The notes below the pieces were generated by a model, which searched no databases, was not told where the DNA came from, and saw nothing but the letters and a program-made list of their open reading frames with translations. Below are positions 10,725-38,534 of a DNA stretch of 64,000 nt, piece after piece; position 1 is the stretch's first letter; every line of letters starts with the position of its first letter. Origin of the DNA: Candidatus Omnitrophota bacterium (GTDB taxonomy: Bacteria; Omnitrophota; Gorgyraeia; Gygaellales; JAQTUX01); contig JAQTUX010000001.1 in the NCBI GenBank assembly GCA_028707125.1, positions 977,493 to 1,041,492 of the forward strand, written 5' to 3'. The position numbers and the translations under genes were made by a program.

Positions 10725-10834
10725 AACGTAAAGCGAAAAGCGCAAAACTAAAGTGTAAAACTTAAAACTATATAACAAAAACTTTAAACTTTACGTTTTG
10801 GTTTTACGCTTTGCGCTTTACACTTTTCACTTTC
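10718..10834. repeat. Family-A intergenic palindromic repeat, copy 1 (cmk-lepA gap)
   Basis: agcgtaaaacgtaaagcgaaaagcgcaaaactaaagtgtaaaacttaaaacta...aaaactttaaactttacgttttggttttacgctttgcgctttacacttttc; over 95% identical to the copies at 38421 and 58383. The left end contains the cmk stop codon. Confidence 0.85.
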
Positions 10835-21389: not shown

Positions 21390-22185
21390 GCTTATAATAT
21401 TGATCCTTGCCATTGTTACGGCCGGGCAAGGGGTTTTTATCTGGAAGAGGTCGATTCCCAGGACGCCAAGGATGCCGCGTGTCTCCAGGAAAGAGGCCGC
21501 GCCAAAGGCGCTGATCGCCATTGTCATAGATGATTGGGGGTATAATCTTAATAACACGGAATTCATAAAGGAGACAAAAGAGCCCTTCTCTGTTTCTATC
21601 TTGCCCAATCTCCCTTTCTCAAAGACAATTTCGGAGGCCGCGTACAATAACGATAAGGAGATCCTGCTGCATCTGCCGCTTGAACCGCATAACGAGGAGA
21701 CGCTGGGCCTGGAGAAGAATACCATATTGACCACGATGAGCGAAAAGGAGGTCAGGGATATACTACGGGTAGCGCTTGAAGATATTTCTCACGCCAGGGG
21801 CGTATCCAATCATATGGGCTCCAAGGCCACTGAGGACGTGGACCTTATGAAGACGATATTTAACGAGATGAAAAGGAACGGCCTTTATTTTCTGGACAGC
21901 CTGGTCTCTCCCAATTCGGTTTGTTTTGACCTGGCCCATAAGATGGACGTGAAGTTTGCCAAGAGGAGCGTATTCCTGGACAATAAGGAAAACCCGGACT
22001 ATATCATAGGCCAGATAGGCAAACTCGTTAATAAGGCGAAGGTTTTCGGTTACGCCATAGGCATAGGCCATGACAGGCATTCTACCCTGGCCGTGCTTAA
22101 GAAGTACCTGCCGAAACTTACGGAGAGCGGATACAAGCTGGTTACGGTCTCCGAGCTTATAGAATATGCTGACTCTGGGGATTGA
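21370..22185 (+). CDS. Divergent polysaccharide deacetylase family protein (YibQ-like)
   Basis: N-terminal TM, then ALIAIVIDDWGYN...HLPLEP...GVSNHMGSKAT, the PF04748-type motifs. Confidence 0.65.
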   Translation: MKKKNYKLIILILAIVTAGQGVFIWKRSIPRTPRMPRVSRKEAAPKALIAIVIDDWGYNLNNTEFIKETKEPFSVSILPNLPFSKTISEAAYNNDKEILLHLPLEPHNEETLGLEKNTILTTMSEKEVRDILRVALEDISHARGVSNHMGSKATEDVDLMKTIFNEMKRNGLYFLDSLVSPNSVCFDLAHKMDVKFAKRSVFLDNKENPDYIIGQIGKLVNKAKVFGYAIGIGHDRHSTLAVLKKYLPKLTESGYKLVTVSELIEYADSGD

Positions 22186-23137
22186 GACCTCCTGTGACGA
22201 GACCTCCGTTGCCGTCGTAAGGAGCGGTAAGGACGTTCTTTCAAACATAGTTTCTTCCAGTTTACCTCTTCATAAGAGATACGGCGGCGTTGTCCCGGAG
22301 ATAGCCAGCCGCCATCATCTTGAGGCGATCGCCCCGGTTTTCAAGGCGGCTTTGGATACGGCCGGTTGCGATCTGGGCCAAATAGGCGCTGTATGCGCTA
22401 CTTTCGGCCCGGGGCTGGCAGGTTCGCTTTTGGTCGGAACTTCTTTCGCGCGCGCGCTGGCGTTTTGCCGCGGGGTTCCATTAGTAAAGGTAGATCACGT
22501 TCATTCGCATATATATGCCGCCTGTTTAGGCAGGAAATTACCTATGGTTTTTCCTTTTATTGGTTTCGTGGCTTCGGGAGGGCACACGGATATCTTTTTT
22601 GTGCGGGATTTCAATAGAATGGAATTGATGGGTTCCACGCTGGACGACGCCGTGGGAGAATCGTTTGATAAGGTTGGCAGGATCCTGGGGCTGGGTTATC
22701 CCGGCGGGCCGGAGATCGAAAAACTTGCCTCGCGAGGCGATCCCGGTAAAATAAGATTTTCCTGCGCGAATATGAAAGGGACGCTCAACTTCAGCTTCAG
22801 CGGCATAAAAACCGCGGTATTGTATTACACAAAGGGAAGGAAGATCAGCCGGGCGCTTAAAGCGGATATCTGCGCCTCTTTTCAGAAGGCGGTGGCAGGC
22901 GTGCTTATAGATAAGGTGTTATCGGCCTGCAGGGCGAAAAGCGCCGGCCGTTTGTTTGTGGGGGGCGGGGTGATGTCAAACAGTTATTTACGCCATAAAC
23001 TAAGCGGGGCTTGCCATAGTAACGGCATAGAAATGTTCATGCCGGATAAGGAATATTGTCTTGATAACGCGGCAATGGCCGCGGGTCTGGGGTTTCAACT
23101 CTTAAAATCGCGAGGTGGTCATGTTAAGCCAGGGTGA
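22166..23137 (+). CDS. tsaD: tRNA N6-adenosine threonylcarbamoyltransferase TsaD
   Basis: MLTLGIETSCDETSVAVV...HHLEA... is the Kae1/TsaD family. Confidence 0.9.
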   Translation: MLTLGIETSCDETSVAVVRSGKDVLSNIVSSSLPLHKRYGGVVPEIASRHHLEAIAPVFKAALDTAGCDLGQIGAVCATFGPGLAGSLLVGTSFARALAFCRGVPLVKVDHVHSHIYAACLGRKLPMVFPFIGFVASGGHTDIFFVRDFNRMELMGSTLDDAVGESFDKVGRILGLGYPGGPEIEKLASRGDPGKIRFSCANMKGTLNFSFSGIKTAVLYYTKGRKISRALKADICASFQKAVAGVLIDKVLSACRAKSAGRLFVGGGVMSNSYLRHKLSGACHSNGIEMFMPDKEYCLDNAAMAAGLGFQLLKSRGGHVKPG

Positions 23138-23552
23138 TATTATGTTGAGGTTGGTATTGGCCGTGCTGTTCAGCGGGGCCATAGGGTTTGAAAGGCAGAT
23201 ACGGCACAGGGGCGCCGGGCTTCGCACGCATATATTAGTGTGCCTGGGCTCAACCCTGATAATGTTGACATCAATATACGTTTTTGATATATATAGAGGT
23301 GAGGCGGCGATAGATCCCGCGAGGATCGCCGCGGGCGTAGTCACAGGCATAGGTTTTCTCTGCGCCGGAACCATCATAAGATCCGGAGAGGCGATACGGG
23401 GATTGACTACGGCGACGAGCCTGTGGCTGGTTGCCGCGGTCGGCCTGGCCATCGGCATAGGATTTTACAGCGCCGCGTTCATGGCCACTGTTTTGGCTTT
23501 AGCCGTCCTTATGATGCTTCGCCGTTTTGAAGACAGGGTTTTTAGCAGATAA
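23121..23552 (+). CDS. MgtC/SapB family membrane protein
   Basis: LRLVLAVLFSGAIGFERQ...GLRTHILV...GIGFLCAG...GLTTAASLW is the MgtC signature. Confidence 0.7.
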   Translation: MLSQGDIMLRLVLAVLFSGAIGFERQIRHRGAGLRTHILVCLGSTLIMLTSIYVFDIYRGEAAIDPARIAAGVVTGIGFLCAGTIIRSGEAIRGLTTATSLWLVAAVGLAIGIGFYSAAFMATVLALAVLMMLRRFEDRVFSR

Positions 23553-23574
23553 ACCATTGAAGGAGGTGGTAAAG

Positions 23575-24075
23575 ATGCCCCTCAGAAGAAAAGCGTTGGA
23601 GGAAAAGGTTCTTGACGTAGATGCCAGTATGCAGGGCGCGCTGATCTTTAAGGATTCGGTTAACCTGCGCATCAACGGAAAATTTGAAGGCACGCTTGAA
23701 ACCAGAGGCAGCCTTACGTTAGGGCAGACCTCATATGTTAACGCCGCCATAACGGGAGACGAGATCGTCGTTGCCGGCCGCGTTAACGGTAAGATCACCG
23801 CCAGGGTAAAGCTTACCCTGCTTTCCAGCGCGATAGTGCAGGGCGAGATCATGCCTTCCAAGTTGGTGATAAACGACGGGGCGCTGTTTGAGGGCACCTG
23901 CCGTATGCTGCAGGATTATTTTAACGCGGAGGAGCTTGCCCGTTACCTGGAGGTTGACATTAATTCCGTTATGGAATGGGCGGATTCCGGAAAGGTCCCG
24001 GGCAATAAGGAGTCCGAAGGGTGGAAGTTTGAGCGCAAGGCAGTTGATGAGTGGATAGCTTCAGGGAGGATCTAG
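23575..24075 (+). CDS. Bactofilin (DUF583 beta-helix) fused to a C-terminal excisionase-family HTH (HTH_17) domain
   Basis: Strong RBS GAAGGAGGTG. Residues ~20-120 show bactofilin-like repeats (VNLRINGKFEGTLETRGSLTLGQTSYVNAAITGDEIVVAGRVNGKITARVKLTLLSSAIVQGEI). The C-terminus EELARYLEVDINSVMEWADSGKVPGNK...WKFERKAVDEWI resembles excisionase/MerR-type HTH. Confidence 0.6.
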   Translation: MPLRRKALEEKVLDVDASMQGALIFKDSVNLRINGKFEGTLETRGSLTLGQTSYVNAAITGDEIVVAGRVNGKITARVKLTLLSSAIVQGEIMPSKLVINDGALFEGTCRMLQDYFNAEELARYLEVDINSVMEWADSGKVPGNKESEGWKFERKAVDEWIASGRI

Positions 24076-24080
24076 ATCAG

Positions 24081-24383
24081 ATGTCGGAGAAATTGTTGAC
24101 CATCAGGGAGGTGTCGCACCTTCTGGAGATCTCGGAAAAAGAAGTGGTGGACCTGGCTGAGCAGGGCAAGATACCGGCTTACAAAGTCGGCGGTTTGTAC
24201 CTGCGTTTTAAGAAAGATCAGATAGATGAGATCAGGCACAGGTTCGTGCCTGACAGCGCGGCCGCGAGGATGAAGTATACGCCTTTTGAGCGCGCCCGCG
24301 ACTTTCTGGTGTATAACGATTTCTATATTGTCTCAGCCACGGTCATATTGGCCATAGTTTATATTATTTTTAAAGGGATTTAA
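24081..24383 (+). CDS. Excisionase-family HTH (HTH_17) protein with a C-terminal transmembrane helix
   Basis: MSEKLLTIREVSHLLEISEKEVVDLAEQGKIPAYKVGGLYLRFKKDQIDE (TIGR01764-like), then a hydrophobic tail FYIVSATVILAIVYIIF. Confidence 0.6.
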   Translation: MSEKLLTIREVSHLLEISEKEVVDLAEQGKIPAYKVGGLYLRFKKDQIDEIRHRFVPDSAAARMKYTPFERARDFLVYNDFYIVSATVILAIVYIIFKGI

Positions 24384-24388
24384 TTTAA

Positions 24389-25054
24389 GTGAAGTCAGAT
24401 AAGCCGGGCTTCCGCGATATAGGGTTTGCCAAGGTTGACATAGACAGGCACAGGCGAAGAGGTTTTCCGGAGGTGATTTTCTGCCAGGGCAAGACAGCCG
24501 GGCAGATAAAGGCGATAGCCGAAGAGATCCTGCGCGATAAACAGCCGCTGCTGCTTACCAGGATCGCCGAAGATACCTTTGTTTATCTTAAGAGGCAATT
24601 CCCCAAACTCAATTATAACAAAGAAGCAAGGGCCGCTTATTATATAGCTGTAAAAAAGAAGAAGCGCGGGCCTGCCGTAATAGTGACCGCGGGCACATCT
24701 GATATCCCTGTCGCCGAAGAGGCGCGCGTTACGCTTGAACTCAGCGGTGTCAAGGCCAAGAGGATTTATGACTGCGGAGTAGCAGGGCTGCACAGGATAA
24801 GACCCTATATAGGGTCTTTGCGCCGGGCAAAGGTCATAATAGTCGTCGCGGGCATGGAAGGGGCGTTGGCGAGCATAGTTTCAGGGATGGTTTCCTGTCC
24901 GGTCATCGCCGTGCCTACCAGCGTGGGTTATGGTTCAAGTTTTAAAGGGCTCTCCGCGTTGCTTACAATGCTTAACAGCTGCTCTCCCGGAGTCGCGGTG
25001 ATGAATATTGATAACGGTTTCGGCGCCGGATACTTCGCCGGCCTTATAGCATGA
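24389..25054 (+). CDS. larB: LarB-like (PurE-related) nickel-pincer nucleotide cofactor biosynthesis carboxylase
   Basis: GFAKVDIDRHRRRGFPEVIF..GKT...VTAGTSDIPVAEEA...VVAGMEGALASIVSGMVSCPVIAVPTSVGYGSSFKGLSALLTMLNSC...NIDNGFGAG matches LarB family motifs throughout. GTG start. Confidence 0.7.
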   Translation: MKSDKPGFRDIGFAKVDIDRHRRRGFPEVIFCQGKTAGQIKAIAEEILRDKQPLLLTRIAEDTFVYLKRQFPKLNYNKEARAAYYIAVKKKKRGPAVIVTAGTSDIPVAEEARVTLELSGVKAKRIYDCGVAGLHRIRPYIGSLRRAKVIIVVAGMEGALASIVSGMVSCPVIAVPTSVGYGSSFKGLSALLTMLNSCSPGVAVMNIDNGFGAGYFAGLIA

Positions 25055-25458
25055 ATAAAGCCACGCTGAGAGAAGCGGTAAGATTCCACGGCCACCTTGG
25101 GCCGTGGCTTGTTTTGGGGCTTTTGATGGGGCCGTACGCCTTGAAGAAAATACGCGCCGGGAAATATTTCAAATTGCGCGTTAAGGTGTGGGGGGCCGGC
25201 GAAAGACCGAAATCCTGCTTAATTGACGGGCTTCAGCTTTCTACGGGCGCAACTTACGGCAAGGGGAACATAGAGAAGCTGAAAGGGCCCAGGGTCAGGG
25301 TCTTATTCCATAATCTGGAAAACAATAAAAAGGCCCTGATATATCTGAAGAAGGGCCTAGCCGGCGCGCTGGAAGATTTAAAAAGCCACAGGGATTCCGA
25401 AAGATTCGCGATGAAATTATGCGAGATCAAACCATCAATGATTTTTACAGATAATTAA
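25051..25458 (+). CDS. FmdE-domain-like protein (FHGH motif)
   Basis: 135 aa reading TLREAVRFHGHLGPWLVLG... resembles the N-terminal FmdE/FwdE domain (PF02663) but lacks the full CxxC set. Confidence 0.45.
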   Translation: MNKATLREAVRFHGHLGPWLVLGLLMGPYALKKIRAGKYFKLRVKVWGAGERPKSCLIDGLQLSTGATYGKGNIEKLKGPRVRVLFHNLENNKKALIYLKKGLAGALEDLKSHRDSERFAMKLCEIKPSMIFTDN

Positions 25459-25469
25459 GAAGGAGCGTA

Positions 25470-26807
25470 ATGGCATTATCAGGTTTAGACATCTACAAAT
25501 TATTGCCTAAGACGAACTGCAGGAAATGCGGCTTTGCTACCTGCCTTGCCTTTGCCATGCAGTTGGCGAAGAAGGCGGTTACCCTGGATAAATGCCCGGA
25601 CCTTACGCGGGAGGCAAAGGATGCTCTTCAGGCCCAGGCAATGCCGCCTATCCGGCTTATCGCCATAGGAGGAGAGGGTAATAAGCTTGAAGTAGGCAAT
25701 GAAACGGTGATGTTCCGCCATGAGGAGAAATTTCACCGCCCCGCAGGCATCGGTTTTATCATAGACGACGACCTTAGCGAGGCGGCTATTGAAGACAGGA
25801 TCAGGGCAGCGGGAAATTTGCGCTTTGAGCGTATCGGAGAGGCGCTGAATTTGAACATTATCGCCGTAAGGCAGAAGAAAAACAGGAGCGCTTTTGTTAA
25901 TGCCGTAAAAAAGGTGTGCTCTTCTTCGGATCTTCCTTTGGCGCTGATGAGCAATGATGAAGCGGCCCTGCGGGATGCCCTGTCTTTGCTTAAGGATAAG
26001 AGGCCGCTTATATTCAAGGCGGACAAAGAAAACATTGAGCAACTCTCATCGCTTGCCGCGGAATTCAAGGCGCCTCTGGTTGTGAGCGCGCAAAACCCTG
26101 AAGAGTTATCCCTGCTGGCTAAACAGGCCGCTTCCAAGGGCGTCAATGACATCGTGCTGTATCCCGACAGCCGGACAGTAAAGAAAAGATTGTGGGACCT
26201 GACCCAGATAAGGAGGCAGGCGCTGAAAAAGAACAACAGGGCCCTTGGCTATCCCACGCTGACTGTCGTTGATGAGGAGGACGCGTTCCTTGAAGCGATC
26301 ACGGCGTCTGTTTTCATATTAAAGTATTCCAGCATAGTCCTGCTAGGTAATTTTCATTCATGGGAGATACTGGCTCTGCTTACCTTAAGACAGAATATCT
26401 TCACCGACCCCCAGAAGCCGCTGCAGGTGGCGCCCAAACTTTATGAGATCGGACAGGTTGACGCCGATTCTCCGCTCATCGTTACCACGAATTTTTCGCT
26501 GACCTATTATACCGTGCTTACTGAGGTAGAGGCCAGCAAGGTGCCTTCCTATATACTTAGCGTGGATACCGAAGGGATGTCCGTGCTCACTGCCTGGGCA
26601 GCGGAGAAATTTACTTCGGAAAGCATTGCCAAGGCGTTGAATGATGACTCCGTTAAAAGCAAGGCTTCCCGTAAGGAGGTCATACTTCCGGGTTACGTCG
26701 CGGTATTGAGCGGGAAACTGGAAGAGGACTCAGGATGGAAGGTGCGCGTAGGGCCTAAAGAGGCGTCAGGGCTTCCCGCATTTTTGAAGGCGTTAAGGAA
26801 TCCATAA
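25470..26807 (+). CDS. acsC: Corrinoid iron-sulfur protein large subunit (acetyl-CoA decarbonylase/synthase gamma; AcsC/CdhE)
   Basis: N-terminal [4Fe-4S] domain MALSGLDIYKLLPKTNCRKCGFATCLAFAMQLAKKAVTLDKCPDL, a TIM-barrel middle and a C-terminal B12-binding region; 445 aa, as for AcsC. Confidence 0.85.
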   Translation: MALSGLDIYKLLPKTNCRKCGFATCLAFAMQLAKKAVTLDKCPDLTREAKDALQAQAMPPIRLIAIGGEGNKLEVGNETVMFRHEEKFHRPAGIGFIIDDDLSEAAIEDRIRAAGNLRFERIGEALNLNIIAVRQKKNRSAFVNAVKKVCSSSDLPLALMSNDEAALRDALSLLKDKRPLIFKADKENIEQLSSLAAEFKAPLVVSAQNPEELSLLAKQAASKGVNDIVLYPDSRTVKKRLWDLTQIRRQALKKNNRALGYPTLTVVDEEDAFLEAITASVFILKYSSIVLLGNFHSWEILALLTLRQNIFTDPQKPLQVAPKLYEIGQVDADSPLIVTTNFSLTYYTVLTEVEASKVPSYILSVDTEGMSVLTAWAAEKFTSESIAKALNDDSVKSKASRKEVILPGYVAVLSGKLEEDSGWKVRVGPKEASGLPAFLKALRNP

Positions 26808-26809
26808 TA

Positions 26810-28714
26810 ATGAACAAAGATACTTATACGATCACATTTTTTCATCCCGGCGCCACGAAGATAGAGGTGCATAAAGGCAGGGATATTTTATCTGCCGCGC
26901 TGGCAGCGGGCATATACATTAACTCAAGCTGCGCCGGAGACGGCGTATGCGGCCGCTGCAAGGTGATCATTAAAAAAGGCGAAATAACCACGGAGCCGTC
27001 CGGACGCGTCTCCATGGAAGAGAGGCATAAAGGATATGTGCTTGCCTGTCAGACAACCGTGCATAGCGACGTAGAAGTAGAAGTGCCTGCCGGATCAATG
27101 CTGGACCTGGACAGCGTTTCTGAAGAAGACGAAAGATTCTTGCGCCTGAAAGGGCTGTACAGCCAGGCAGAGGATGTGGATAAGGCGGAAGGCGTGATCA
27201 AGGAGAAACTATTCGCGCATAGCCCGCTGGCAACCAAGGTTTATCTTAAGATGCCCGCGCCGACGTTTAATGACACGGCCAGCGATTTAGAGAGATTATA
27301 CAGAGAACTCAGAAAAAAGAAAGACATACCTGTATTACAGAGCGGCCTGACCAACATTAAGCGCCTGGGTATGCTGTTAAGGGAGAGCGGCTTTAAGGTT
27401 ACAGCGCTTTTAGGGGAGAGGAACGGGACCGTAGAGGTCATTTCTCTGGAGTCAGGCGATACGTCCAGGGATAATTACGGCGTTGCCTTTGATATCGGCA
27501 CTACCACTATTACCGGCCAGCTGGTGGATCTTAATACCAGGAAAATATTGGGCACAAAGGGGACCTACAATAAACAGGCCGCTTTCGGCAGCGATGTCAT
27601 TACGCGCATTATTTACGCGGCAGAGGAAGGCGGACTGGAAAAGCTGCATCACGCGGTGATCGATAATATCAATTCCATAATCCAGGAATTGGTAAAAGAA
27701 GGCGGCGTTGAGTTGAGCGATGTAAATGCCGTGATGTGCGCGGGCAATACCACTATGATACATCTGCTCCTGCGGGTCGATCCCGCGTTTATCAGGAAGG
27801 AGCCCTATGTCGCCACTGCCAATTTTATGCCGGTGATCAGGGCGGCAGAGGCAGGGATAAAGATAAATCCCAGGGGCCTGCTTGCCTCTATGCCCGGGGT
27901 AACTACGTATGTGGGCGGCGATATAACAGCCGGCGTGCTGGCAAGCGGGATCAACAGGTCCGACAAACTAAGTATGCTGATAGATATAGGCACAAACGGC
28001 GAGATAGCCCTGGGGAATAAGGACTGGCTGGTTTCTTGCGCCGCTTCCGCCGGCCCGGCCTTTGAGGGCAGCGGAGTCAAGTACGGCATGAGAGCGGCCA
28101 AAGGCGCGATCCAACGAGTGGATATATCGGCATCGGGAAAGGCCAGGGTTGAAACCATAGGGAATGCCAGGCCCAGAGGCATATGCGGTTCGGGTTATAT
28201 TGACTGCCTGGCGGAATTGTTTAAGAAGGGCCTGATAGACAAAAACGGCAAATTCCGCGATGACAGTGAGGAATTTATCCTGGTTCCCCGGAAGGAAGCC
28301 GATACGGAATACGATATCACAATTACGGAAGCGGACATTGAGAATCTCAAGCGTTCCAAAGGGGCGATCTACGCCGCGGCAACGGTATTGCTGAAGAAAA
28401 TGGACCTGGATTTCAACGATATTGAACGCTTTTATATCGCCGGAGGTTTCGGCACATATCTGGATATAGATAAGGCCGTGGCGATCGGCATGCTTCCCGA
28501 TTTAAATAGAAAGAAATTTTCATTCATAGGCAATAGTTCTCTCGTAGGCGCGCGGGAGGGGCTGCTTTCTTACGAAGCTAAAACAGAGGCGGAAGAGATC
28601 GCGAGGAAAATGACCTATATTGAATTAAGCATAGAGCCGGCATATATGGATGAATATGTGGCGGCTTTGTTCTTTCCGCATACGGACTTGAACAGGTTCC
28701 CCAGCGTAAAGTAA
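26810..28714 (+). CDS. Reductive activator of CoFeSP (RACo): [2Fe-2S] ferredoxin plus ASKHA ATPase
   Basis: N-terminal plant-type ferredoxin (SSCAGDGVCGRCKV...LACQT), a linker, and a C-terminal ASKHA domain (FDIGTTTITGQLVD...); about 630 aa, matching RACo architecture. Confidence 0.75.
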   Translation: MNKDTYTITFFHPGATKIEVHKGRDILSAALAAGIYINSSCAGDGVCGRCKVIIKKGEITTEPSGRVSMEERHKGYVLACQTTVHSDVEVEVPAGSMLDLDSVSEEDERFLRLKGLYSQAEDVDKAEGVIKEKLFAHSPLATKVYLKMPAPTFNDTASDLERLYRELRKKKDIPVLQSGLTNIKRLGMLLRESGFKVTALLGERNGTVEVISLESGDTSRDNYGVAFDIGTTTITGQLVDLNTRKILGTKGTYNKQAAFGSDVITRIIYAAEEGGLEKLHHAVIDNINSIIQELVKEGGVELSDVNAVMCAGNTTMIHLLLRVDPAFIRKEPYVATANFMPVIRAAEAGIKINPRGLLASMPGVTTYVGGDITAGVLASGINRSDKLSMLIDIGTNGEIALGNKDWLVSCAASAGPAFEGSGVKYGMRAAKGAIQRVDISASGKARVETIGNARPRGICGSGYIDCLAELFKKGLIDKNGKFRDDSEEFILVPRKEADTEYDITITEADIENLKRSKGAIYAAATVLLKKMDLDFNDIERFYIAGGFGTYLDIDKAVAIGMLPDLNRKKFSFIGNSSLVGAREGLLSYEAKTEAEEIARKMTYIELSIEPAYMDEYVAALFFPHTDLNRFPSVK

Positions 28715-28718
28715 GGAT

Positions 28719-29468
28719 ATGGGTTATATAATCGCAGTTGCGGGCAAGGGCGGAACAGGCAAGACCACGATAGCGTCGCTGCTGGTCCGGCTCCTTAAGG
28801 ACGCGGGCAAAACTTCCATTATCGCTATTGACGCCGACCCGAATTCCAATTTAGGCGATGCCCTGGGCGTTGAAGTAAAGGAGAGTATCGGCAGCATCCT
28901 GGACGATGTGGCAAAAGACCCGCGCCAGATCCCGGCGGGCACTACAAAAGACAGGTTTTTAGAATACAGGATCCAGGATTCCGTTGTTGAGGCGGATGGC
29001 TTTGACCTGCTTAGCATGGGCAGGCCTGAAGGCCCCGGCTGTTACTGTTTCGTGAATAATCTGCTGCGCGCGATGATCGCGCGGCTGGCGTCGGCTTATA
29101 AGTACGTGATCATAGATAATGAGGCGGGGTTTGAGCATTTGTCGCGGCGCACAATGCGCAGCGCCGACGTGCTTCTCATAGTTTCCGACCCATCTTCTGC
29201 CGGATTACGCGCCGCAGCAAGGATAGATAAACTATCGCGGGAATTGGATATCGCCATAAAAAGAAGGGTGCTTGTGATAAACCGCGTTAGCGGCTCAACA
29301 GCGGATACCGGCATTATACAGAAGTCAGGCATTGAGATGCTTGGCAGCATAGCCGATGATAAGGCCGTAAACGACATATCCGTCAGCGGCGGCTCGGCCT
29401 TTTCGTTGAGCGGCGCGTCGCCGGCATACCGGCAATTGAAAAAGATCGGAGAGAAAATATGGGCTTAG
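28719..29468 (+). CDS. cooC: CooC/AcsF-type Ni-insertion ATPase (CO dehydrogenase/ACS maturation factor)
   Basis: MinD/ParA-type Walker A (AVAGKGGTGKTT) plus the CooC-specific GPGCYC (CxC) metal-binding motif. Confidence 0.8.
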   Translation: MGYIIAVAGKGGTGKTTIASLLVRLLKDAGKTSIIAIDADPNSNLGDALGVEVKESIGSILDDVAKDPRQIPAGTTKDRFLEYRIQDSVVEADGFDLLSMGRPEGPGCYCFVNNLLRAMIARLASAYKYVIIDNEAGFEHLSRRTMRSADVLLIVSDPSSAGLRAAARIDKLSRELDIAIKRRVLVINRVSGSTADTGIIQKSGIEMLGSIADDKAVNDISVSGGSAFSLSGASPAYRQLKKIGEKIWA

Positions 29469-30421
29469 AGCTGGTCAAGGAAAAATGGGCGTCCGCGATC
29501 AACGTGGTGCAGATAGGCGCCGCGAAAGAAGACGGCGGTACGCGTACGCATACTGTGAAGGCAGGCGGCGAGAGCACTCTTGCCTTCCTGGAGGAAGAGG
29601 GAGGAATTCCCCACAGGCCGCTGATCGCCTATGAGGTATGGGATATAGAACCAGGTGACTGGCCTGACGAACTGAAAAACGCCTATGGCAAGGTTTTAAA
29701 GAGCCCTCTTGATTGGGCGCTTAAATGCGTAAATGAATTCAAGGCAGGCCTGCTTTGCCTGCGCCTGCAGGGCGCGCATCCGGATTCAGGTGACAGGACT
29801 GCCGATGCCTCGGTAAAGTTAGTCAAGGAATTGCTGAAGGCGACAGGGGTCCCTCTTATAATACTGGGCTGCGGCGATGATGCTAAGGATAATCAAGTGC
29901 TTGTGTCCTGCTCTCAGGCAGCCGCCGGAGAAAGATGCCTCATAGGCGACGCTGTCCAGGAGAATTATAAGACGCTTGCCGCGGCGGTGATCGCTGACGG
30001 CCACTCCATTATCGCCGAGTCGCCCATTGATATCAATATCGCCAAACAGCTCAATATCCTCATATCGGACATGGGTGTCGCGCTTGATAAGATCGTGATA
30101 AATCCCACGATAGGGTCTTTGGGTTATGGCCTTGAATACGCCTATTCTATTATGGAAAGGGCGCGTTTGGCCGCTCTCTCGGGAGATAAAATGATGCAGA
30201 TGCCCTTTATATGTTTTGTGGGTTATGAGGCCTGGCGGGCAAAAGAGGCAAAGTCAACCCTCAAGGAAACGCCTGAATGGGGCGATGAAAAAATGCGCGC
30301 TCCTTTATGGGAGGCGTTGACCGCCAGCGCGCTCCTGCAGGCAGGGGCGGATATCCTGGTGATGCGCCACCCTATGTCTATAAAATATATCGAGCAGCAT
30401 ATAGACGAATTAATGAAATGA
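29459..30421 (+). CDS. acsD: Corrinoid iron-sulfur protein small subunit (acetyl-CoA decarbonylase/synthase delta; AcsD/CdhD)
   Basis: 320-aa TIM-barrel protein (…VPLIILGCGDDAKDNQVL...) with the size and placement of AcsD beside acsC/acsE. Confidence 0.75.
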   Translation: MGLELVKEKWASAINVVQIGAAKEDGGTRTHTVKAGGESTLAFLEEEGGIPHRPLIAYEVWDIEPGDWPDELKNAYGKVLKSPLDWALKCVNEFKAGLLCLRLQGAHPDSGDRTADASVKLVKELLKATGVPLIILGCGDDAKDNQVLVSCSQAAAGERCLIGDAVQENYKTLAAAVIADGHSIIAESPIDINIAKQLNILISDMGVALDKIVINPTIGSLGYGLEYAYSIMERARLAALSGDKMMQMPFICFVGYEAWRAKEAKSTLKETPEWGDEKMRAPLWEALTASALLQAGADILVMRHPMSIKYIEQHIDELMK

Positions 30422-30577
30422 TAAACTCTAAACTCGAAACCCTAAACTCTCAACAAACCCAAAACCCAAAACTCCAAACCCAAAACCTCACTATGATGAT
30501 TGATGTTTTGAGTTTGTGGTTTAGAGTTTGTGATTTGTTTAGTGTTTAGAGTTTAGTGTTTAGGGTTTGATTTGAGG
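30422..30577. repeat. Family-B intergenic imperfect palindrome (~155 bp), acsD-acsE gap
   Basis: Left arm of aaac-containing units (aaactctaaactcgaaaccctaaactctcaacaaacccaaaacccaaaactccaaacccaaaacctca) and a right arm that is its approximate reverse complement (tgttttgagtttgtggtttagagtttgtgatttgtttagtgtttagagtttagtgtttagggtttgatttgagg). Confidence 0.8.
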
Positions 30578-30585
30578 ATTAGAAT

Positions 30586-31374
30586 ATGTTTATCATTGGC
30601 GAACTAATTAACGGGATGTACAAGGATATCGGCGCCGCGATCAGGGCCAAGGATAAGTCCGTTATCCAGAAAAAGGCGCTGGCGCAGATAAACGCGGGGG
30701 CTGACGCGCTTGACGTTAATTGCGGCCCGGCTTCCAGCGATCCGGTAAATGATATCAAATGGCTGGTGAACGCCATACAAGAGGTAACCGACAGGGCATT
30801 GTGTATTGATTCAAGCAAGCCCGAAGTCGTAAAGTCCGGTTTAGAGGCAGCCAAAAACAGCGCTATCATTAACTCAACTACTGCCGATGAAGAAAAGCTT
30901 GGCGTCCTGGTCCCGTTGGCTAAACAATATAAGGCCAAACTGATCGGCCTGACCATCAGTAAAAAGGGCATACCGCAGAATAAAGACCAGCGGTTAGAGT
31001 TGGCCGCGGCCATACTCGCCGCGGCGCAGGAAGGCGGCCTGAATACGGAAGATGTGTTCCTCGATCCCATAGTAATACCGGTAAATGTGGCTCAAGCGCA
31101 AATGAAAGATATCCTTGAGGCGGTAAGGGAGTTTAAGATAATCTCCGACCCGCCGGCAAAGACAGTAGTCGGCTTAAGCAATGTTTCGCAGGGTACTTGT
31201 CAACGCAACATCATAAACAGGGTTTTCCTGGTTATGGCTGTTGCCTGCGGTTTGGACGCGGCAATACTTGACCCCCTGGATAAAGACCTGGTTGACGCCG
31301 CGATCACCTCAGATTTGATCCTGAATAAGCAGATATACTGCGATTCGTTCCTTGAAGCGTATAGAAAAAAATGA
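30586..31374 (+). CDS. acsE: Methyltetrahydrofolate:corrinoid/iron-sulfur protein methyltransferase (MeTr, AcsE)
   Basis: MFIIGELINGMYKDIGAAIRAKD...DVNCGPASSD...INSTTADEEK...GLSNVSQGTCQRNIINRVFLVMAVACGLDAAILDP...IYCDSF aligns closely along its length with Moorella AcsE (262 aa). Confidence 0.85.
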   Translation: MFIIGELINGMYKDIGAAIRAKDKSVIQKKALAQINAGADALDVNCGPASSDPVNDIKWLVNAIQEVTDRALCIDSSKPEVVKSGLEAAKNSAIINSTTADEEKLGVLVPLAKQYKAKLIGLTISKKGIPQNKDQRLELAAAILAAAQEGGLNTEDVFLDPIVIPVNVAQAQMKDILEAVREFKIISDPPAKTVVGLSNVSQGTCQRNIINRVFLVMAVACGLDAAILDPLDKDLVDAAITSDLILNKQIYCDSFLEAYRKK

Positions 31375-31451
31375 GGCGAGGTAGCTCAGTTGGTTAGAGC
31401 ATGCGGCTCATACCCGCAGTGTCGGCGGTTCGAATCCGCCCCTCGCTACCA
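31375..31451 (+). tRNA. tRNA-Met (anticodon CAU), elongator type
   Basis: GGCGAGG..GCTCAGTTGGTTAGAGC..TGCGG CTCATAC CCGCA..GGTTCGAATCC..CCTCGCT A, with an encoded CCA. It starts one base after the acsE stop. Confidence 0.8.
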
Positions 31452-31455
31452 TTAT

Positions 31456-32451
31456 TTGAAAGTGTCCATCCAAAATAAATTCAAACACACAATAACCCAA
31501 CACAATCTCATCTCTAACCACGACCGTATCCTCATCGGCGTATCAGGCGGGCCTGATTCTGTAGCGTTGTTATGCCTGCTTAATTCAATAAAGAAAGAAT
31601 TCAAACTTGACCTCGTGATAGGCCATCTGGACCACGGGCTGCGCAGAGAATCGGTTAAAGATATGGACTTTGTTTTGGGGCTGGGCAGAAAGCTCAAAAT
31701 TCCCGTGGTGTGTGAAAGGATCAAACTTAGCTCAGAAGGAAAGGGCTCTTTGGAGGAGACTGCCAGGTTCGCAAGGCTGGATTTTTTCCGTCGGGTTTGC
31801 AAAGAATTTAACCTGAACAAGGTTGCACTGGGCCACAATATGGACGACCAGGCAGAGACAGTGCTTATGCGCGTCTTAAGGGGGACCGGTTTGTTCGGGC
31901 TTGCCGCTATTAAACCCGGGAGGCGCATAGGGGCATTAGAAGTGATCAGGCCGCTTCTTGATATTGAAAGAAAGGGCATAGAAAAATACCTTAAAGAGAA
32001 ACGCGTCACGCCTGTTATTGACAGGACGAATACCCGGGACATATTCTTTAGAAATAAGATACGCAACCGCCTGCTTCCCGAATTAACAAAATATAACCCC
32101 AACATAAAACAAATCCTTGCCAATACTGCCAGGCAGTCAGGAGACGACTATGATTTTTTGCTTAATGCCGCCAGGAAGGCGCTGAGGTCGGTCAAGGCCT
32201 CTGCCTCAAAGACAAGAGTAAGATTAGAATTAAGGCGTTTAACCAGATGCCATCCCGCGATGTTCAGGATGGTCTTACGCTTCGCTTATCAGCATATAAA
32301 AGGCGATTTGAGGCGCCTGACCTTCCGCCACCTTGAAGAATTGGAGGCGCTTGTATTCACGAGGCCGCTTCGTTCGGTAGTAAACCTGCCCCGGAACATC
32401 GCTGCCAGGAAAGAGAAAAGATTCCTATCCATTTATTCCTCAAAAGGATAG
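31456..32451 (+). CDS. tilS: tRNA(Ile)-lysidine synthetase TilS (short form)
   Basis: PP-loop ILIGVSGGPDSVALL, HLDHGLR, ALGHNMDDQAETVLMR. The start is assigned to the TTG at 31456 just after the tRNA; the longer listed ORF start overlaps the tRNA and is unlikely. Confidence 0.75.
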   Translation: MKVSIQNKFKHTITQHNLISNHDRILIGVSGGPDSVALLCLLNSIKKEFKLDLVIGHLDHGLRRESVKDMDFVLGLGRKLKIPVVCERIKLSSEGKGSLEETARFARLDFFRRVCKEFNLNKVALGHNMDDQAETVLMRVLRGTGLFGLAAIKPGRRIGALEVIRPLLDIERKGIEKYLKEKRVTPVIDRTNTRDIFFRNKIRNRLLPELTKYNPNIKQILANTARQSGDDYDFLLNAARKALRSVKASASKTRVRLELRRLTRCHPAMFRMVLRFAYQHIKGDLRRLTFRHLEELEALVFTRPLRSVVNLPRNIAARKEKRFLSIYSSKG

Positions 32452-32539: not shown

Positions 32540-34429
32540 ATGCAGCAGAAACAGCAGAAAAACAGGAAGATCCAGCCGAAGAAGTTTAACCGGCCGGCTA
32601 TGATATGGCTTATTCTTGTATTGGGTATATTTTATCTTTTCAGCATAGCCAATGTATCGCTTACCGGCATACCAAAAGAGCTTCAATACGGGCAATTCTA
32701 CCATATCCTGAAAGATAATCCGCAGACCAGCACCATAAAGTCGGTTATCAAGACCGGCAGTATCCTGCAGGGCGAGTTCAGCGACGGAAATAAGTTTTTC
32801 GTTAACGTGCCTGATGAGGACGAGGACCTGCTTTCCCTTCTGAAGAATAACGTGGCCGAGTTTGATATCAAGCCGCCGAAGACCCTGCTTGCCAGTTTAT
32901 TTTTCTCTTTCGGCCCGGTAATAGTGATCCTTATAATCTGGTGGCTTATGGCCGCGAAGGGAGAGCAGTTAGGCAACAGGGTAATGTCATTCGGCAAGAT
33001 CCGGCCGAGGATCCACAGCGAAAAAGACGCGCAGGTAACTTTCAATGACGTTGCCGGAGTGGATGAAGCGAAGGAGGAGTTAAAAGAGGTCATAGAATTC
33101 CTTAAGGACCCCAAAAGATTTCAAAGATTGGGCGGCAAGATCCCGAAAGGCGTCCTGCTTGTCGGCCCTCCGGGCTGCGGCAAGACATTAGTCGCCAGGG
33201 CTGTTGCCGGTGAGGCGGGCGTCCCTTTCTTTTCCATCAGCGGATCTGATTTCGTGGAGATGTTTGTAGGCGTAGGCGCCTCAAGGGTGCGCGACTTGTT
33301 TGACCAGGGCAGGCGCGCGGCAAAAGTTTCGGGCAAAGGCGCCATCATATTCATTGATGAAATTGACGCTGTGGGCCGCTTAAGGTTTTCCGGCATAGGG
33401 GGAGGCCACGACGAAAGGGAACAGACATTGAACCAGCTTTTGGTTGAGATGGACGGGTTTGATACTACCTATGGCCTTATACTCATAGCCGCCACCAACA
33501 GGCCTGATACGCTTGATCCCGCTTTACTTCGTCCGGGAAGGTTTGACAGGCGTATAGTCATAAGCTTTCCCGATATCGGGGGCAGGGAGGCGATATTAAA
33601 AATTCACACTAGAAAGATAAAACTGGCTGACAAGGTTGATTTAAGATCCATAGCCAGCCAGACGCCGGGTTTTTCAGGGGCAGACCTGGCAAACCTGTGC
33701 AATGAGGCGGCGCTGCTCGCGGCGCGGCACGACAAAGAATCTGTGGGTATGTCAGAACTTGAACATTCAATTGAACGCGTGCTTATGGGGCCCGAGAAGA
33801 GAAGCCACGTTATGTCCAGGCGCGAAAAGGAGATCACGGCATACCACGAATCAGGCCACGCGCTGCTTTCTTTGTTAATGCCCGACGTAGACGTGGTGAA
33901 GAAGGTCTCGATCATACCCAGAGGCATGGCAGGCGGCTATACCTTTACGCCTCCGTTAGAAGATAAGCATTATCATACCAGAAAAGAATTGCTCGGCAGG
34001 ATATCGGTGATGTTGGGAGGCAGGGCTTCGGAAGAGATCATACTGCAGGATTTTACCACAGGGGCCCAGAACGACCTGGAGGGCGCGACGCATATGGCAA
34101 GGCGTATGGTGACCGAATTCGGCATGTCGGAAAAGTTAGGCCACATTACGCTGGGAAAAAGAGAAGGGTTGATATTCCTCGGCAAGGATATAGTGGAAGA
34201 GAGGAACTACAGCGATGAGACGGCGCACCTTATAGATGAAGAAGTGAAAAAGATAGTGGACGGCTGCTATGCCGCTTCCAGGAAGATGCTTAAGGAGAAC
34301 GAGGACAAACTGCGGATGCTTTCGGCGCGGCTGCTGGAAAAAGAGATCCTTGATGGAGAAGAGGTAAAGGCGCTTCTTGGCTTATCGGGGGCGAAGGATG
34401 GATCACAGGATAAAGTCCGGGACGCATAA
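32540..34429 (+). CDS. ftsH: ATP-dependent zinc metalloprotease FtsH
   Basis: Two N-terminal TM segments, AAA+ motifs ([14 protein letters not shown]), HEAGH zinc site, 629 aa. Confidence 0.95.
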
Positions 34430-34439
34430 TATCAGGGTT

Positions 34440-35633
34440 ATGCCGGAAACGGATGTATGCCTGGCAGAACGCCTGATGAAGGAAGCAGGCGTTGACGGCT
34501 ACGGCATAGGCATCATGGCCCCCAAGGCCGTATCGCTTTTAATTAAGATAAAAGGCCTCTCCAACATATCGGCCAATATTTTAAAACAGGAATTGCTTTC
34601 GTTGGGAGCGGACGCGGCTATCTCCAGAGGCTCGCTTACCGGAAAGGTAAAGAAAACCGATTGTCTTGTTATGGGCAATCTTGCCCAGTACCAGCGCCTC
34701 CGCGGTAAACTGGAGCGCCAGCCCTTCGGATTGGGGTTATTGGCTGAAGAGGTCAACAGGGCGATAATCAATTTCCAGAAGGAAGATTTCATTCTCTCTG
34801 CCGGAAGTTTCAGGATAAAACTGGGCAGGAAAACCGGGATCGCCGCCATAATCAATATTACGCCCGACTCATTCAGCAACGACGGTATATATCGCGGCTC
34901 TATCGCGGATGTCAAGGCGCGCGCCTTAACGCTGGCAGAACGGGCCATACAGGACGGCGCTGATATAATTGATATAGGGGGCGAATCAAGCAGGCCCGGC
35001 GCCGCTAAAATTACGATAAGGGAAGAACTTAAAAGGGTGATACCGGTGATCAGATTCCTGGCGAAAAAGATAAACAAGCCGGTTTCCATAGATACTTATA
35101 AACCGGAAGTGGCGGACGCGGCCGTTGATTGCGGCGCTTCTATAATAAATGACATTACCGCCTTATCCAATATAAAGATGCGCCGGATCGCGGCGCGCGC
35201 GAAAGCGGCGGTTGTGCTCATGCATATGAAGGGCACGCCCCGCACTATGCAGAAGAACCCCGCGTACAGCTCGATCATTGATGAGATATTGGATTTTCTT
35301 AAGGCAGCGGCAGCGAAAGCGGAAGAAGCAGGCGTAAAAAGAGAAAGCATTGTCGTTGACCCGGGTATCGGTTTCGGAAAGACAGCGCGGCATAACCTTG
35401 AAATTATCAGGCATCTCAAGGAATTCAGAGGCCTGGGCTTGCCTATAATGGCAGGCATATCCAGAAAGTCATTTATAGGGCATGTCCTGGGCCTGCCCGT
35501 GAATGAAAGGTCGCTGGGCACGGCCTCTGCCGCGGCCGCCTGCATATTAAACGGCGCTTCAATAATCAGGGTCCATGACGCAGGCCAGGCCCGGCAGGTC
35601 AGGGACATGGTTGACGCGGTAAGAGGGGCGTGA
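34440..35633 (+). CDS. folP: Dihydropteroate synthase with an ~130-aa N-terminal extension of unknown function
   Basis: The C-terminal 270 aa are pterin-binding DHPS (AIINITPDSFSNDG...DIIDIGGESSRPGA...). The N-terminal part (MPETDVCLAERLMKEAGVDGYGIGIMAP...) matches no family I recognise. The start could instead be ATG 34398. Confidence 0.7.
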   Translation: MPETDVCLAERLMKEAGVDGYGIGIMAPKAVSLLIKIKGLSNISANILKQELLSLGADAAISRGSLTGKVKKTDCLVMGNLAQYQRLRGKLERQPFGLGLLAEEVNRAIINFQKEDFILSAGSFRIKLGRKTGIAAIINITPDSFSNDGIYRGSIADVKARALTLAERAIQDGADIIDIGGESSRPGAAKITIREELKRVIPVIRFLAKKINKPVSIDTYKPEVADAAVDCGASIINDITALSNIKMRRIAARAKAAVVLMHMKGTPRTMQKNPAYSSIIDEILDFLKAAAAKAEEAGVKRESIVVDPGIGFGKTARHNLEIIRHLKEFRGLGLPIMAGISRKSFIGHVLGLPVNERSLGTASAAAACILNGASIIRVHDAGQARQVRDMVDAVRGA

Positions 35634-38468: not shown

Positions 38469-38534
38469 AACTATATAACAAAAACTTTAAACTTTACGTT
38501 TTGGTTTTACGCTTTGCGCTTTACACTTTTCGCT
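38421..38534. repeat. Family-A intergenic palindromic repeat, copy 2 (nnr-recX gap; left arm in-frame with the nnr 3' end)
   Basis: agcgtaaaacgtaaagcgaaaagcgcaaaagtaaagtgtaaaatttaaaactatataacaaaaactttaaactttacgttttggttttacgctttgcgctttacacttttcgct. Confidence 0.85.

What the first reader, a model, noticed from the sequence alone, without database searches (positions are those of the whole stretch)
24389..31374. Wood-Ljungdahl corrinoid module (acsC-RACo-cooC-acsD-acsE) without CODH/ACS subunits in view, preceded by LarB-like and FmdE-like genes
acsC (CFeSP large subunit), a RACo-type activator, cooC/acsF, acsD and acsE are contiguous. No acsA/acsB (CODH/ACS catalytic subunits) occurs in the 25 kb on either side. 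A LarB-family carboxylase (a nickel-pincer cofactor biosynthesis enzyme, here without larC, larE or larA nearby) and a small FmdE-domain-like protein sit directly upstream. Either the catalytic Ni enzymes are encoded elsewhere, or the CFeSP/MeTr module serves a different methyl-transfer partner. LarB beside a Ni-insertion ATPase (CooC) and a corrinoid protein is an unusual association. It could mean a LarB-derived pyridinium cofactor or an unrelated carboxylation is coupled to this module.
Basis: partly seen in the sequence, partly recalled or inferred. Interest (0 to 1): 0.6.

Follow-up and report, generated by a model that had tools for sequence, protein, structure and literature searches.

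The report
Omnitrophota acetyl-CoA pathway corrinoid gene cluster
This is an ordinary methyl-transfer half of the Wood-Ljungdahl carbon-fixation pathway from an uncultured Omnitrophota bacterium; the nickel-cofactor gene (larB) beside it is an inherited neighbour, not a partner, and only a small FmdE-like gene remains unexplained.

Summary
Window 24389-31374 encodes LarB, a 135-aa FmdE-fold protein, AcsC, RACo/AcsV, a CooC/AcsF-type ATPase, AcsD and AcsE. No CODH or ACS catalytic subunit lies anywhere in the 64 kb.

The source is an NCBI Candidatus Omnitrophota MAG (proteins MDD4910024-30, on a 1.26-Mb contig). AcsC, RACo and AcsE are full-length close homologues of the Carboxydothermus proteins with solved structures.

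The proposed LarB-acs coupling is not supported.
- LarB ends a block (TsaD-MgtC-bactofilin/HTH-HTH-LarB) that Omnitrophota keep with or without the acs genes.
- In 7 of 11 acs-less relatives LarC follows LarB directly.
- Two relatives have LarB-LarC-AcsC.
- Nearly all genes are co-directional and tightly packed, so adjacency says little about function.

A published survey reports a Wood-Ljungdahl pathway with AcsB-E, with or without AcsA/CooS, in the families of three relatives that carry this locus. AcsB elsewhere is therefore the likely answer, but I could not check this genome.

The unexplained part is the FmdE-like gene. It was found only in the arrangement LarB-FmdE-AcsC (66 of 66 assessable metagenome loci), at the position LarC holds in sister lineages. 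A 160-nt palindromic element lies between acsD and acsE. Overall interest is low.

The parts
22166..24383 (+). Upstream syntenic block that LarB belongs to: TsaD (22166-23137), MgtC (23115-23552), bactofilin-HTH_17 fusion (23527-24075), small HTH_17 protein (24051-24383)
   Evidence: Pfam assignments. The same order lies upstream of LarB in Omnitrophota loci with and without acs genes.
24389..25054 (+). LarB, pyridinium-3,5-biscarboxylic acid mononucleotide synthase (nickel-pincer cofactor biosynthesis)
   Evidence: NCBIfam LarB equivalog 284 bits against a cut-off of 175. 227 bits to PDB 7mj0, with the Cys221 equivalent conserved.
25051..25458 (+). Stand-alone FmdE-fold protein (135 aa), function unknown; its start overlaps the larB stop by 4 nt
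   Evidence: Pfam FmdE 60.5 bits. AlphaFold pLDDT 92.5; TM 0.78-0.79 to 2gvi/2glz. Invariant FHGH, C56 and DGLQ...GKGN in 120 homologues. Found between LarB and AcsC in all 66 metagenome loci where both sides can be assessed.
25470..26807 (+). AcsC, large subunit of the corrinoid iron-sulfur protein (CFeSP)
   Evidence: Pfam FeS + CdhD. NCBIfam 552 bits. 409 bits full length to 2h9a, with the C-x2-C-x4-C-x16-C motif aligned.
26810..28714 (+). RACo/AcsV, ATP-dependent reductive activator of CFeSP
   Evidence: Fer2 + RACo_linker + Raco_middle + RACo_C_ter. 584 bits to C. hydrogenoformans RACo, 3zyy.
28719..29468 (+). CooC/AcsF-type P-loop nickel-insertion ATPase
   Evidence: Best solved relative is CooC1, 3kje (83 bits). 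GKGGTGKT and the C-x-C motif (GCYC) align with CooC1.
29459..30421 (+). AcsD, small subunit of CFeSP
   Evidence: Pfam CdhD. NCBIfam PRK04452.1-2, 428 bits against a cut-off of 280.
30412..30572 (.). Imperfect 79-nt-arm palindrome (degenerate CCCTAAA-like repeats and their complement) that fills the acsD-acsE spacer
   Evidence: Inverted repeat I1. Folds at -47.6 kcal/mol on the + strand (z -5.2) and -56.8 on the - strand (z -6.9). Similar elements lie in other intergenic spacers of relatives: L010 AcsC-RACo, L132 AcsD-AcsE, L002. No Rfam family reaches its threshold.
30586..31374 (+). AcsE, methyltetrahydrofolate:CFeSP methyltransferase (MeTr)
   Evidence: NCBIfam NF005719, 300 bits against a cut-off of 259. 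269 bits full length to 2yci.
31375..31451 (+). tRNA with CAT anticodon; marks the 3' edge of the cluster, directly upstream of tilS
   Evidence: Rfam tRNA 69 bits and ARAGORN.

Best explanation
The region is the methyl-transfer half of a bacterial Wood-Ljungdahl (acs) gene cluster in an Omnitrophota genome.

How it works (established biochemistry of these families, inferred here by homology):
- AcsE moves the methyl group of methyl-tetrahydrofolate onto Co(I) of the corrinoid iron-sulfur protein AcsC/AcsD.
- RACo uses ATP and its 2Fe-2S domain to re-reduce CFeSP that has been oxidised to Co(II).
- The CooC/AcsF-type ATPase loads nickel into a Ni-Fe-S enzyme.
- Methyl-CFeSP then hands the methyl group to acetyl-CoA synthase (AcsB). 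I infer that AcsB is encoded elsewhere in the genome; a CODH (AcsA/CooS) may or may not be present.

LarB is a normal nickel-pincer cofactor biosynthesis enzyme. It sits here by inherited gene order: it ends a conserved housekeeping block, and in related genomes LarC follows it. The FmdE-fold protein is a lineage-specific addition at the head of the acs module, most likely an accessory of that module, with unknown biochemistry. The palindrome between acsD and acsE is a repeat-type intergenic element.
For: Shown here:
- Full-length, high-scoring matches of AcsC, RACo and AcsE to the solved C. hydrogenoformans proteins, with the Fe-S motif kept in AcsC. AcsD passes its NCBIfam cut-off. The P-loop and C-x-C motif are kept in the ATPase.
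- LarB equivalog with the catalytic Cys.
- The GatCAB-CtpA-TsaD-MgtC-bactofilin-HTH-LarB block is conserved in 16 acs-bearing and 11 acs-less Omnitrophota loci.
- LarC (PF01969) lies directly after LarB in 41 of 80 LarB loci. These include 7 of the 11 acs-less Omnitrophota loci, plus L002 and L013 with LarB-LarC-AcsC.
- An NJ tree of LarB groups the acs-adjacent and acs-less Omnitrophota LarBs together, which fits vertical descent.
- The FmdE-like gene occurs only in acs-bearing loci: 9 of 17 against 0 of 10 (Fisher p = 0.009, loci not independent). It stays with AcsC in L162, where a GltD-like gene rather than LarB lies upstream.
- 63 of 66 ORFs are on the + strand with tight spacing.

From the literature:
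- Omnitrophota of Velamenicoccia and Gorgyraia carry a WLP with AcsB-E, lacking or having AcsA/CooS. The family Profunditerraquicolaceae is included, and relatives L005, L010 and L015 belong to it (PMC10066038).
Against: - AcsB was not seen. It is absent from the 64-kb window and from the 8-10 kb either side of the module in 96 related loci.
- I could not scan the rest of this MAG.
- In 14 of 14 model acetogens acsB is clustered with acsCDEF (PMC5039349), so this arrangement departs from the textbook one.
- LarC, LarE and LarA were not located for this genome.
- LarB/FmdE/AcsC adjacency is very strongly conserved, and larB and the FmdE-like gene overlap by 4 nt. That is also what a functional operon would look like.
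Confidence: 0.75

Rival explanations
1. There is no acetyl-CoA synthase in this genome. AcsE, CFeSP and RACo act as a stand-alone methyl shuttle from methyl-tetrahydrofolate to another acceptor, for example a MesB-type core methionine synthase that takes methyl groups from CFeSP.
For: - No acsB in 64 kb or near the module in 96 related loci.
- MesB and MesC are proposed to draw methyl groups from CFeSP (PMC7857596).
- Omnitrophota genomes are reduced and their WLP is often partial.
Against: - A CooC/AcsF-type nickel-insertion ATPase with intact motifs is kept inside the cluster.
- The survey reports AcsB-E in the families to which three relatives belong.
- MesB and MesC are themselves found only in organisms with the WLP.
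- No MetE-core-like ORF is in the window.
Confidence: 0.1
2. LarB and the FmdE-like protein are functionally tied to each other or to the acs module. For example, the FmdE-like protein displaced LarC in place as a metal-insertion or chaperone factor, or a LarB-derived pyridinium compound is used by the module.
For: - LarB-FmdE-AcsC in 66 of 66 assessable metagenome loci and 9 of 9 genome loci.
- 4-nt larB/fmdE overlap in the window and in L081.
- The FmdE-like gene sits exactly where LarC sits in the sister lineages L002 and L013.
- Invariant His, Cys, Asp and Lys residues.
- None of the 120 best LarC hits in either of two searches lies on a contig whose length matches a contig that carries LarB-FmdE-acs.
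- New NPN-dependent enzyme families are still being found through lar neighbourhoods (PMC13524815).
Against: - The LarB block is conserved without acs or FmdE.
- A subclade (L010, L012, L015, L026, L028) keeps LarB-AcsC with neither LarC nor FmdE between them.
- L162 has FmdE-AcsC without LarB upstream.
- A profile of the FmdE clade finds no member next to LarB in any other phylum among the 80 LarB loci.
- The LarC hit lists are truncated and also miss known Omnitrophota LarCs (L008, L022, L027), so the absence is not informative.
Confidence: 0.07

Closest known systems
acs gene cluster of Carboxydothermus hydrogenoformans / Moorella thermoacetica (acsA-acsB-acsC-orf7/RACo-acsF-acsD-acsE)
   Same: Same five genes, acsC, RACo, cooC/acsF-type, acsD and acsE. 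The shared order is from my own recollection of the Moorella and Carboxydothermus operons and was not checked here. The proteins are close: AcsC 409 bits, RACo 584 bits and AcsE 269 bits to the C. hydrogenoformans structures.
   Different: No acsA or acsB is adjacent, whereas acsB is clustered with acsCDEF in 14 of 14 model acetogens (PMC5039349). An FmdE-like gene and larB lie upstream. A 160-nt palindrome lies between acsD and acsE.
Partial Wood-Ljungdahl pathway of Omnitrophota (Seymour et al. 2023, PMC10066038)
   Same: Same phylum. Relatives with this locus (UBA1562, UBA6249, AM-2014-D7_bin-608) belong to Profunditerraquicolaceae. That family is reported to encode the WLP with AcsB-E, with or without AcsA/CooS.
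   Different: In the text and supplementary text I read, the paper works at the level of KEGG gene presence. The word 'corrinoid' does not occur in its main text and 'larB' does not occur in its supplementary files. I did not search it for FmdE or for a description of the locus layout or of acsB being detached.
Incomplete Wood-Ljungdahl pathway of Dehalococcoides mccartyi with MesB
   Same: A WLP fragment in which CFeSP serves as a methyl hub. That it also lacks CODH is from my own recollection and was not checked here.
   Different: Dehalococcoides lacks AcsE and MetF, and the flow is proposed to run from acetyl-CoA to methionine (PMC7857596). Here AcsE is present and intact.
lar genes for nickel-pincer nucleotide biosynthesis (LarB, LarC, LarE; user LarA) of Lactiplantibacillus plantarum
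   Same: LarB is a clear orthologue (227 bits to 7mj0, catalytic Cys kept). In related genomes LarC directly follows it.
   Different: No larC (tblastn) and no LarA-, LarC- or LarE-type Pfam/NCBIfam assignment for any window ORF. Where checked in Omnitrophota relatives (L008, L014, L022, L027), only the larB-larC pair is linked and unrelated genes follow.
FmdE-like structural-genomics proteins 2gvi (Thermoplasma), 2glz (Desulfitobacterium), 3d00 (Syntrophus)
   Same: Same fold (TM 0.67-0.79). Shared FHGH and DG.Q..TG.TYGKG motifs.
   Different: Only 18-21% identical. Two cysteines of the 2gvi sequence (HGHKCP, TGCT) are Gly and Ala here, and this is invariant in the clade. At 135 aa it is shorter than 2gvi (201-204 aa). 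It is not in a formylmethanofuran dehydrogenase operon.

Membership tests
Bacterial Wood-Ljungdahl acs cluster (CFeSP / MeTr / RACo / AcsF) | AcsC with an N-terminal [4Fe-4S] cysteine motif and full-length similarity to a characterised CFeSP large subunit | tested here: met
   C-x2-C-x4-C-x16-C aligned with 2h9a; 409 bits over residues 1-441. NCBIfam 552 bits against a cut-off of 306.
Bacterial Wood-Ljungdahl acs cluster (CFeSP / MeTr / RACo / AcsF) | AcsD small subunit and AcsE methyltransferase above curated family thresholds | tested here: met
   AcsD 428 bits against 280. AcsE NF005719 300 bits against 259. AcsE 269 bits full length to MeTr 2yci.
Bacterial Wood-Ljungdahl acs cluster (CFeSP / MeTr / RACo / AcsF) | RACo architecture: 2Fe-2S ferredoxin domain + linker + middle + ASKHA ATPase domain | tested here: met
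   All four Pfam domains present. 584 bits to 3zyy. The NCBIfam AcsV 'exception' model scores 654, below its strict cut-off of 800.
Bacterial Wood-Ljungdahl acs cluster (CFeSP / MeTr / RACo / AcsF) | CooC/AcsF-type ATPase with a deviant Walker A and a C-x-C nickel-binding motif | tested here: met
   GKGGTGKT and GCYC align with CooC1, 3kje. Whether it is the AcsF or the CooC subtype was not resolved.
Bacterial Wood-Ljungdahl acs cluster (CFeSP / MeTr / RACo / AcsF) | acsB physically clustered with acsC, acsD, acsE and acsF, as in 14 of 14 model acetogens | tested here: not met
   No AcsB in the 64 kb or near the module in 96 related loci.
Bacterial Wood-Ljungdahl acs cluster (CFeSP / MeTr / RACo / AcsF) | AcsB (and optionally AcsA/CooS) encoded somewhere in the same genome | not testable with these tools
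The only support is the literature on related families.
LarB (nickel-pincer nucleotide biosynthesis) | Equivalog-level sequence match and the catalytic cysteine (Cys221 in L. plantarum) | tested here: met
   284 bits against a cut-off of 175. Cys at residue 198 aligns with Cys221 of 7mj0.
LarB (nickel-pincer nucleotide biosynthesis) | LarC and LarE present in the same genome | tested here: inconclusive
   No LarC in the window. Two LarC searches list no hit on a contig of matching length, but the lists are cut at 120 hits. LarE was not searched for.
FmdE (PF02663) | Pfam match above the gathering score, and the FmdE fold | tested here: met
   60.5 bits against 22.9. TM 0.78-0.79 to 2gvi and 2glz.
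FmdE (PF02663) | Cysteines of the HGHxCP and TGCT motifs seen in 2gvi (their role as metal ligands is my recollection, not tested) | tested here: not met
   HGHLGP and TGAT here; invariant or nearly so in 120 homologues.
FmdE (PF02663) | Located in a formylmethanofuran dehydrogenase (fmd/fwd) operon | tested here: not met
   No fmd/fwd genes in the window. The neighbours are LarB and AcsC.

The most novel reading that the evidence does not exclude
In this Omnitrophota clade the FmdE-fold protein replaced LarC at its own position. On this reading it is a previously unrecognised metal-handling factor, either finishing a LarB-derived cofactor without LarC or serving the corrinoid/nickel enzymes of the acs module. 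The genomes of the clade would then lack LarC.
Probability: 0.08. Interest if true: 0.6.

Novelty: new member of a known kind. Interest (0 to 1): 0.2.

Why it matters
- It removes a false lead. LarB beside a nickel ATPase and a corrinoid protein looks suggestive, but it comes from conserved gene order in a compact, one-strand genome.
- In Omnitrophota the methyl-transfer genes of the Wood-Ljungdahl pathway form a stable unit detached from acsB, unlike in model acetogens.
- In this MAG two of its genes carry generic names: AcsE is called 'dihydropteroate synthase' and the nickel ATPase 'AAA family ATPase'. Surveys that go by name could therefore under-call the pathway.
- The only open point is the strictly conserved FmdE-fold gene at the head of the module. 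The FmdE-like relatives with solved structures are structural-genomics entries with no assigned function, and this clade gives a clean genomic context in which to test one.

Tried and rejected
**Finding the source contig.** An exact look-up of AcsC and of the FmdE-like protein returned nothing in the contig index. Cluster look-up did identify the NCBI MAG and the contig length.

**Finding AcsB.**
- A Moorella AcsB A-cluster-domain probe, verified against PDB 1mjg/3i04, found nothing in the window, the 80 genome loci or the 80 metagenome loci.
- All ORFs of 430 aa or more in the acs-bearing loci were labelled. The five unlabelled ones were ShlB-type transporters, a TPR protein, an AcsD-AcsE fusion and one protein with no Pfam hit.
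- I did not run a database-wide AcsB search. Only the 120 best hits are listed, and these would all be close relatives of the query.

**Finding LarC of this MAG elsewhere.** There was no match, but the lists are truncated and also miss known Omnitrophota LarCs. By the LarB/LarC identity calibration, a LarC from this MAG would fall right at the cut. I treat this as uninformative.

**Per-genome acsB calls.** The supplementary table of Seymour et al. that would hold them is cut in the stored copy.

**Literature links.**
- Searches for FmdE with corrinoid or cobalamin gave no title or abstract connecting FmdE to corrinoid chemistry; the papers were not opened.
- The V. archaeovorus papers held no locus detail.

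**Regulatory signals.** No RNA family reached its threshold near the cluster. The promoter and terminator scans were no better than noise for defining an operon.

**Fold search.** The AlphaFold database library was not available.

Full report
**What is there.**
- LarB (24389-25054) passes the NCBIfam equivalog model (284 bits against a cut-off of 175). It aligns over its whole length with L. plantarum LarB (7mj0, 227 bits), and the catalytic Cys221 equivalent is kept.
- The next ORF (25051-25458, 135 aa) is a Pfam FmdE protein. Its AlphaFold model (pLDDT 92.5) superposes on the FmdE-like structural-genomics proteins 2gvi and 2glz at TM 0.78-0.79.
- AcsC, RACo and AcsE are full-length relatives of the C. 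hydrogenoformans proteins with solved structures: 409, 584 and 269 bits.
- AcsD passes its NCBIfam threshold.
- The P-loop ATPase is closest to CooC1 and keeps the GKGGTGKT and C-x-C motifs.
- A tRNA with anticodon CAT starts one base after the acsE stop. TilS, FtsH and FolP follow.

**What is not there.** Every ORF of 400 aa or more in the 64 kb has another clear assignment. An AcsB A-cluster-domain probe, confirmed identical to Moorella AcsB residues 491-681, finds nothing in the window. LarC is also absent from the window.

**Source.** The window's LarB, FmdE-like, CooC-type, AcsD and AcsE proteins are NCBI entries MDD4910024, 25, 28, 29 and 30. They come from a Candidatus Omnitrophota MAG and lie on a contig of 1,261,957 bp. 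NCBI names AcsE 'dihydropteroate synthase' and the ATPase 'AAA family ATPase'.

**LarB is a neighbour by descent.** A scan of one genome per species with LarB returned 80 loci. In the Omnitrophota loci the block GatCAB-CtpA-(deacetylase)-TsaD-MgtC-bactofilin/HTH-HTH-LarB is conserved. It occurs in 16 loci where the acs genes follow and in 11 loci where they do not.
- TsaD lies within about 300 bp upstream of LarB in contigs labelled Planctomycetota, Brocadiales and Sedimentisphaerales too.
- In 7 of the 11 acs-less Omnitrophota loci the gene after LarB is LarC (PF01969). LarC follows LarB in 41 of the 80 loci overall.
- Two Omnitrophota genomes (L002, L013) have LarB-LarC-AcsC-RACo-CooC-AcsD-AcsE.
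- In four LarB-LarC loci that I checked (L008, L014, L022, L027), unrelated genes follow LarC (PDZ proteins, HAMP-like proteins, a histidine kinase, PilB, PolA). The lar genes are therefore scattered in this phylum anyway.
- A rough NJ tree puts the acs-adjacent LarBs in one clade next to the acs-less Omnitrophota LarBs, as expected for vertical inheritance.
- 63 of 66 ORFs in the window are on the + strand, most with short or overlapping junctions, and GC skew is positive throughout. Co-direction and tight spacing therefore carry little information about operons here.

**The FmdE-like gene.** Its 120 closest homologues share invariant F12-H13-G14-H15, C56, D59-G-L-Q and G70-K-G-N. Two cysteines of the 2gvi sequence are replaced by Gly and Ala.
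- It occurs in 8 of the 16 acs-bearing genome loci plus the window, and in none of the acs-less ones (Fisher p = 0.009, loci not independent).
- A metagenome scan gave 80 loci. All 66 in which both sides can be read are LarB-FmdE-AcsC.
- One short contig (L162) has a GltD-like gene, then FmdE, then AcsC. There the gene stays with AcsC when LarB is not upstream.
- A profile of the clade finds no member next to LarB in any other phylum among the 80 LarB loci.
- A subclade keeps LarB-AcsC with neither LarC nor FmdE between them.

My reading is that the FmdE-like gene belongs with the acs module. It does sit where LarC sits in the sister lineage, which leaves a small chance of displacement in place.

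**Where is AcsB?** I could not scan the rest of the MAG. Indirect evidence favours 'elsewhere'.
- The cluster keeps a nickel-insertion ATPase whose known clients are the nickel clusters of ACS and CODH (the client range is established knowledge of CooC and AcsF).
- Seymour et al. (PMC10066038) report that Velamenicoccia and Gorgyraia encode a WLP with AcsB-E, with AcsA/CooS absent in 24 species and present in 19.
- They name Profunditerraquicolaceae in both groups. Relatives L005, L010 and L015, which carry this same locus, belong to that family.

Against this, acsB lies within the 8-10 kb fetched on either side of the module in none of the 96 related loci. In 14 of 14 model acetogens acsB is clustered with acsCDEF (PMC5039349). 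Detachment of acsB is thus a stable trait of this clade. A known alternative acceptor for methyl-CFeSP is the MesB/MesC core methionine synthase (PMC7857596), which I keep as a minor rival.

**An extra feature inside the coordinates.** The 165-nt acsD-acsE spacer is an imperfect palindrome with 79-nt arms, built from degenerate CCCTAAA-like repeats.
- Both strands fold far better than shuffled controls (z = -5.2 and -6.9).
- Similar elements lie in other spacers in relatives: L010 between AcsC and RACo, L132 between AcsD and AcsE, and L002 elsewhere. I read it as a repeat-type intergenic element rather than a conserved regulator.
- A second family of palindromes, 111 nt long and 96-98% identical, has three copies in the window.

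**Verdict.** [quoted passage not shown] LarB is an inherited neighbour. The FmdE-like gene is the only part without an explanation. Novelty: new member of a known kind. Interest: 0.2.

Noticed in passing
window 31375-31462: A tRNA with anticodon CAT starts one base after the acsE stop and overlaps the mechanical TTG start (31390) of the TilS ORF. An in-frame GTG at 31462 is the likelier tilS start. A CAT tRNA directly upstream of tilS could be tRNA-Ile2, the substrate of TilS.
   Followed up: partly
window 10718-10828, 38421-38531, 58383-58493: Three copies, 96-98% identical, of a 111-nt palindromic element with 49-nt arms. Each lies in a short spacer between co-directional genes (cmk|lepA, nnr|recX, guaA|dnaE) and overlaps the mechanical start codons of lepA and recX. 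It looks like a recently spread REP/MITE-like repeat.
   Followed up: partly
window 30412-30572; L010 12052-12189; L132 13424-13467; L002 3763-3886: Palindromes built from telomere-like repeats (CCCTAAA/TTTAGGG) recur in different intergenic spacers of different Omnitrophota genomes, twice inside the acs cluster. There is a weak sub-threshold Rfam match to a plant miRNA precursor (35.7 bits against a gathering score of 90), which I take as chance hairpin likeness.
   Followed up: partly
window 23527-24383: A bactofilin-HTH_17 fusion protein and a small HTH_17 (excisionase/MerR-like) protein lie directly upstream of LarB in nearly all Omnitrophota loci where that stretch is present, with or without acs genes.
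   Followed up: no
window 34377-34850: FolP (dihydropteroate synthase) carries an N-terminal extension of about 150 aa with no Pfam match. The extension aligns with the relative L015.
   Followed up: no
window 1-64000: 63 of 66 ORFs of 70 aa or more are on the + strand, and GC skew is positive in every 2-kb bin. The - strand ORF at 2543-2818 lies inside the RNase P RNA gene (2422-2878) and is spurious.
   Followed up: partly
window 28719-29468 and 30586-31374: In the NCBI record the CooC-type ATPase is named 'AAA family ATPase' and AcsE 'dihydropteroate synthase'. Name-based surveys would therefore miss two genes of the pathway.
   Followed up: yes
L004 5503-7203; L117 8728-10317: One relative (L004) has a single 566-aa ORF with CdhD and Pterin_bind domains, an AcsD-AcsE fusion or a read-through. 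Another (L117) has a 529-aa TPR protein inserted between AcsC and RACo.
   Followed up: partly
protein hits P0199, P0200, P0243, P0249, P0250: Some LarC homologues are fused to PDZ domains (about 700 aa) or to a YebC/TACO1 domain. In L014 and L027 a PDZ protein is encoded right after LarC.
   Followed up: no
L055 10955-12109 (- strand): An IS110-family transposase lies immediately downstream of LarB in one acs-less Omnitrophota relative, at the junction where the gene order differs among relatives.
   Followed up: no
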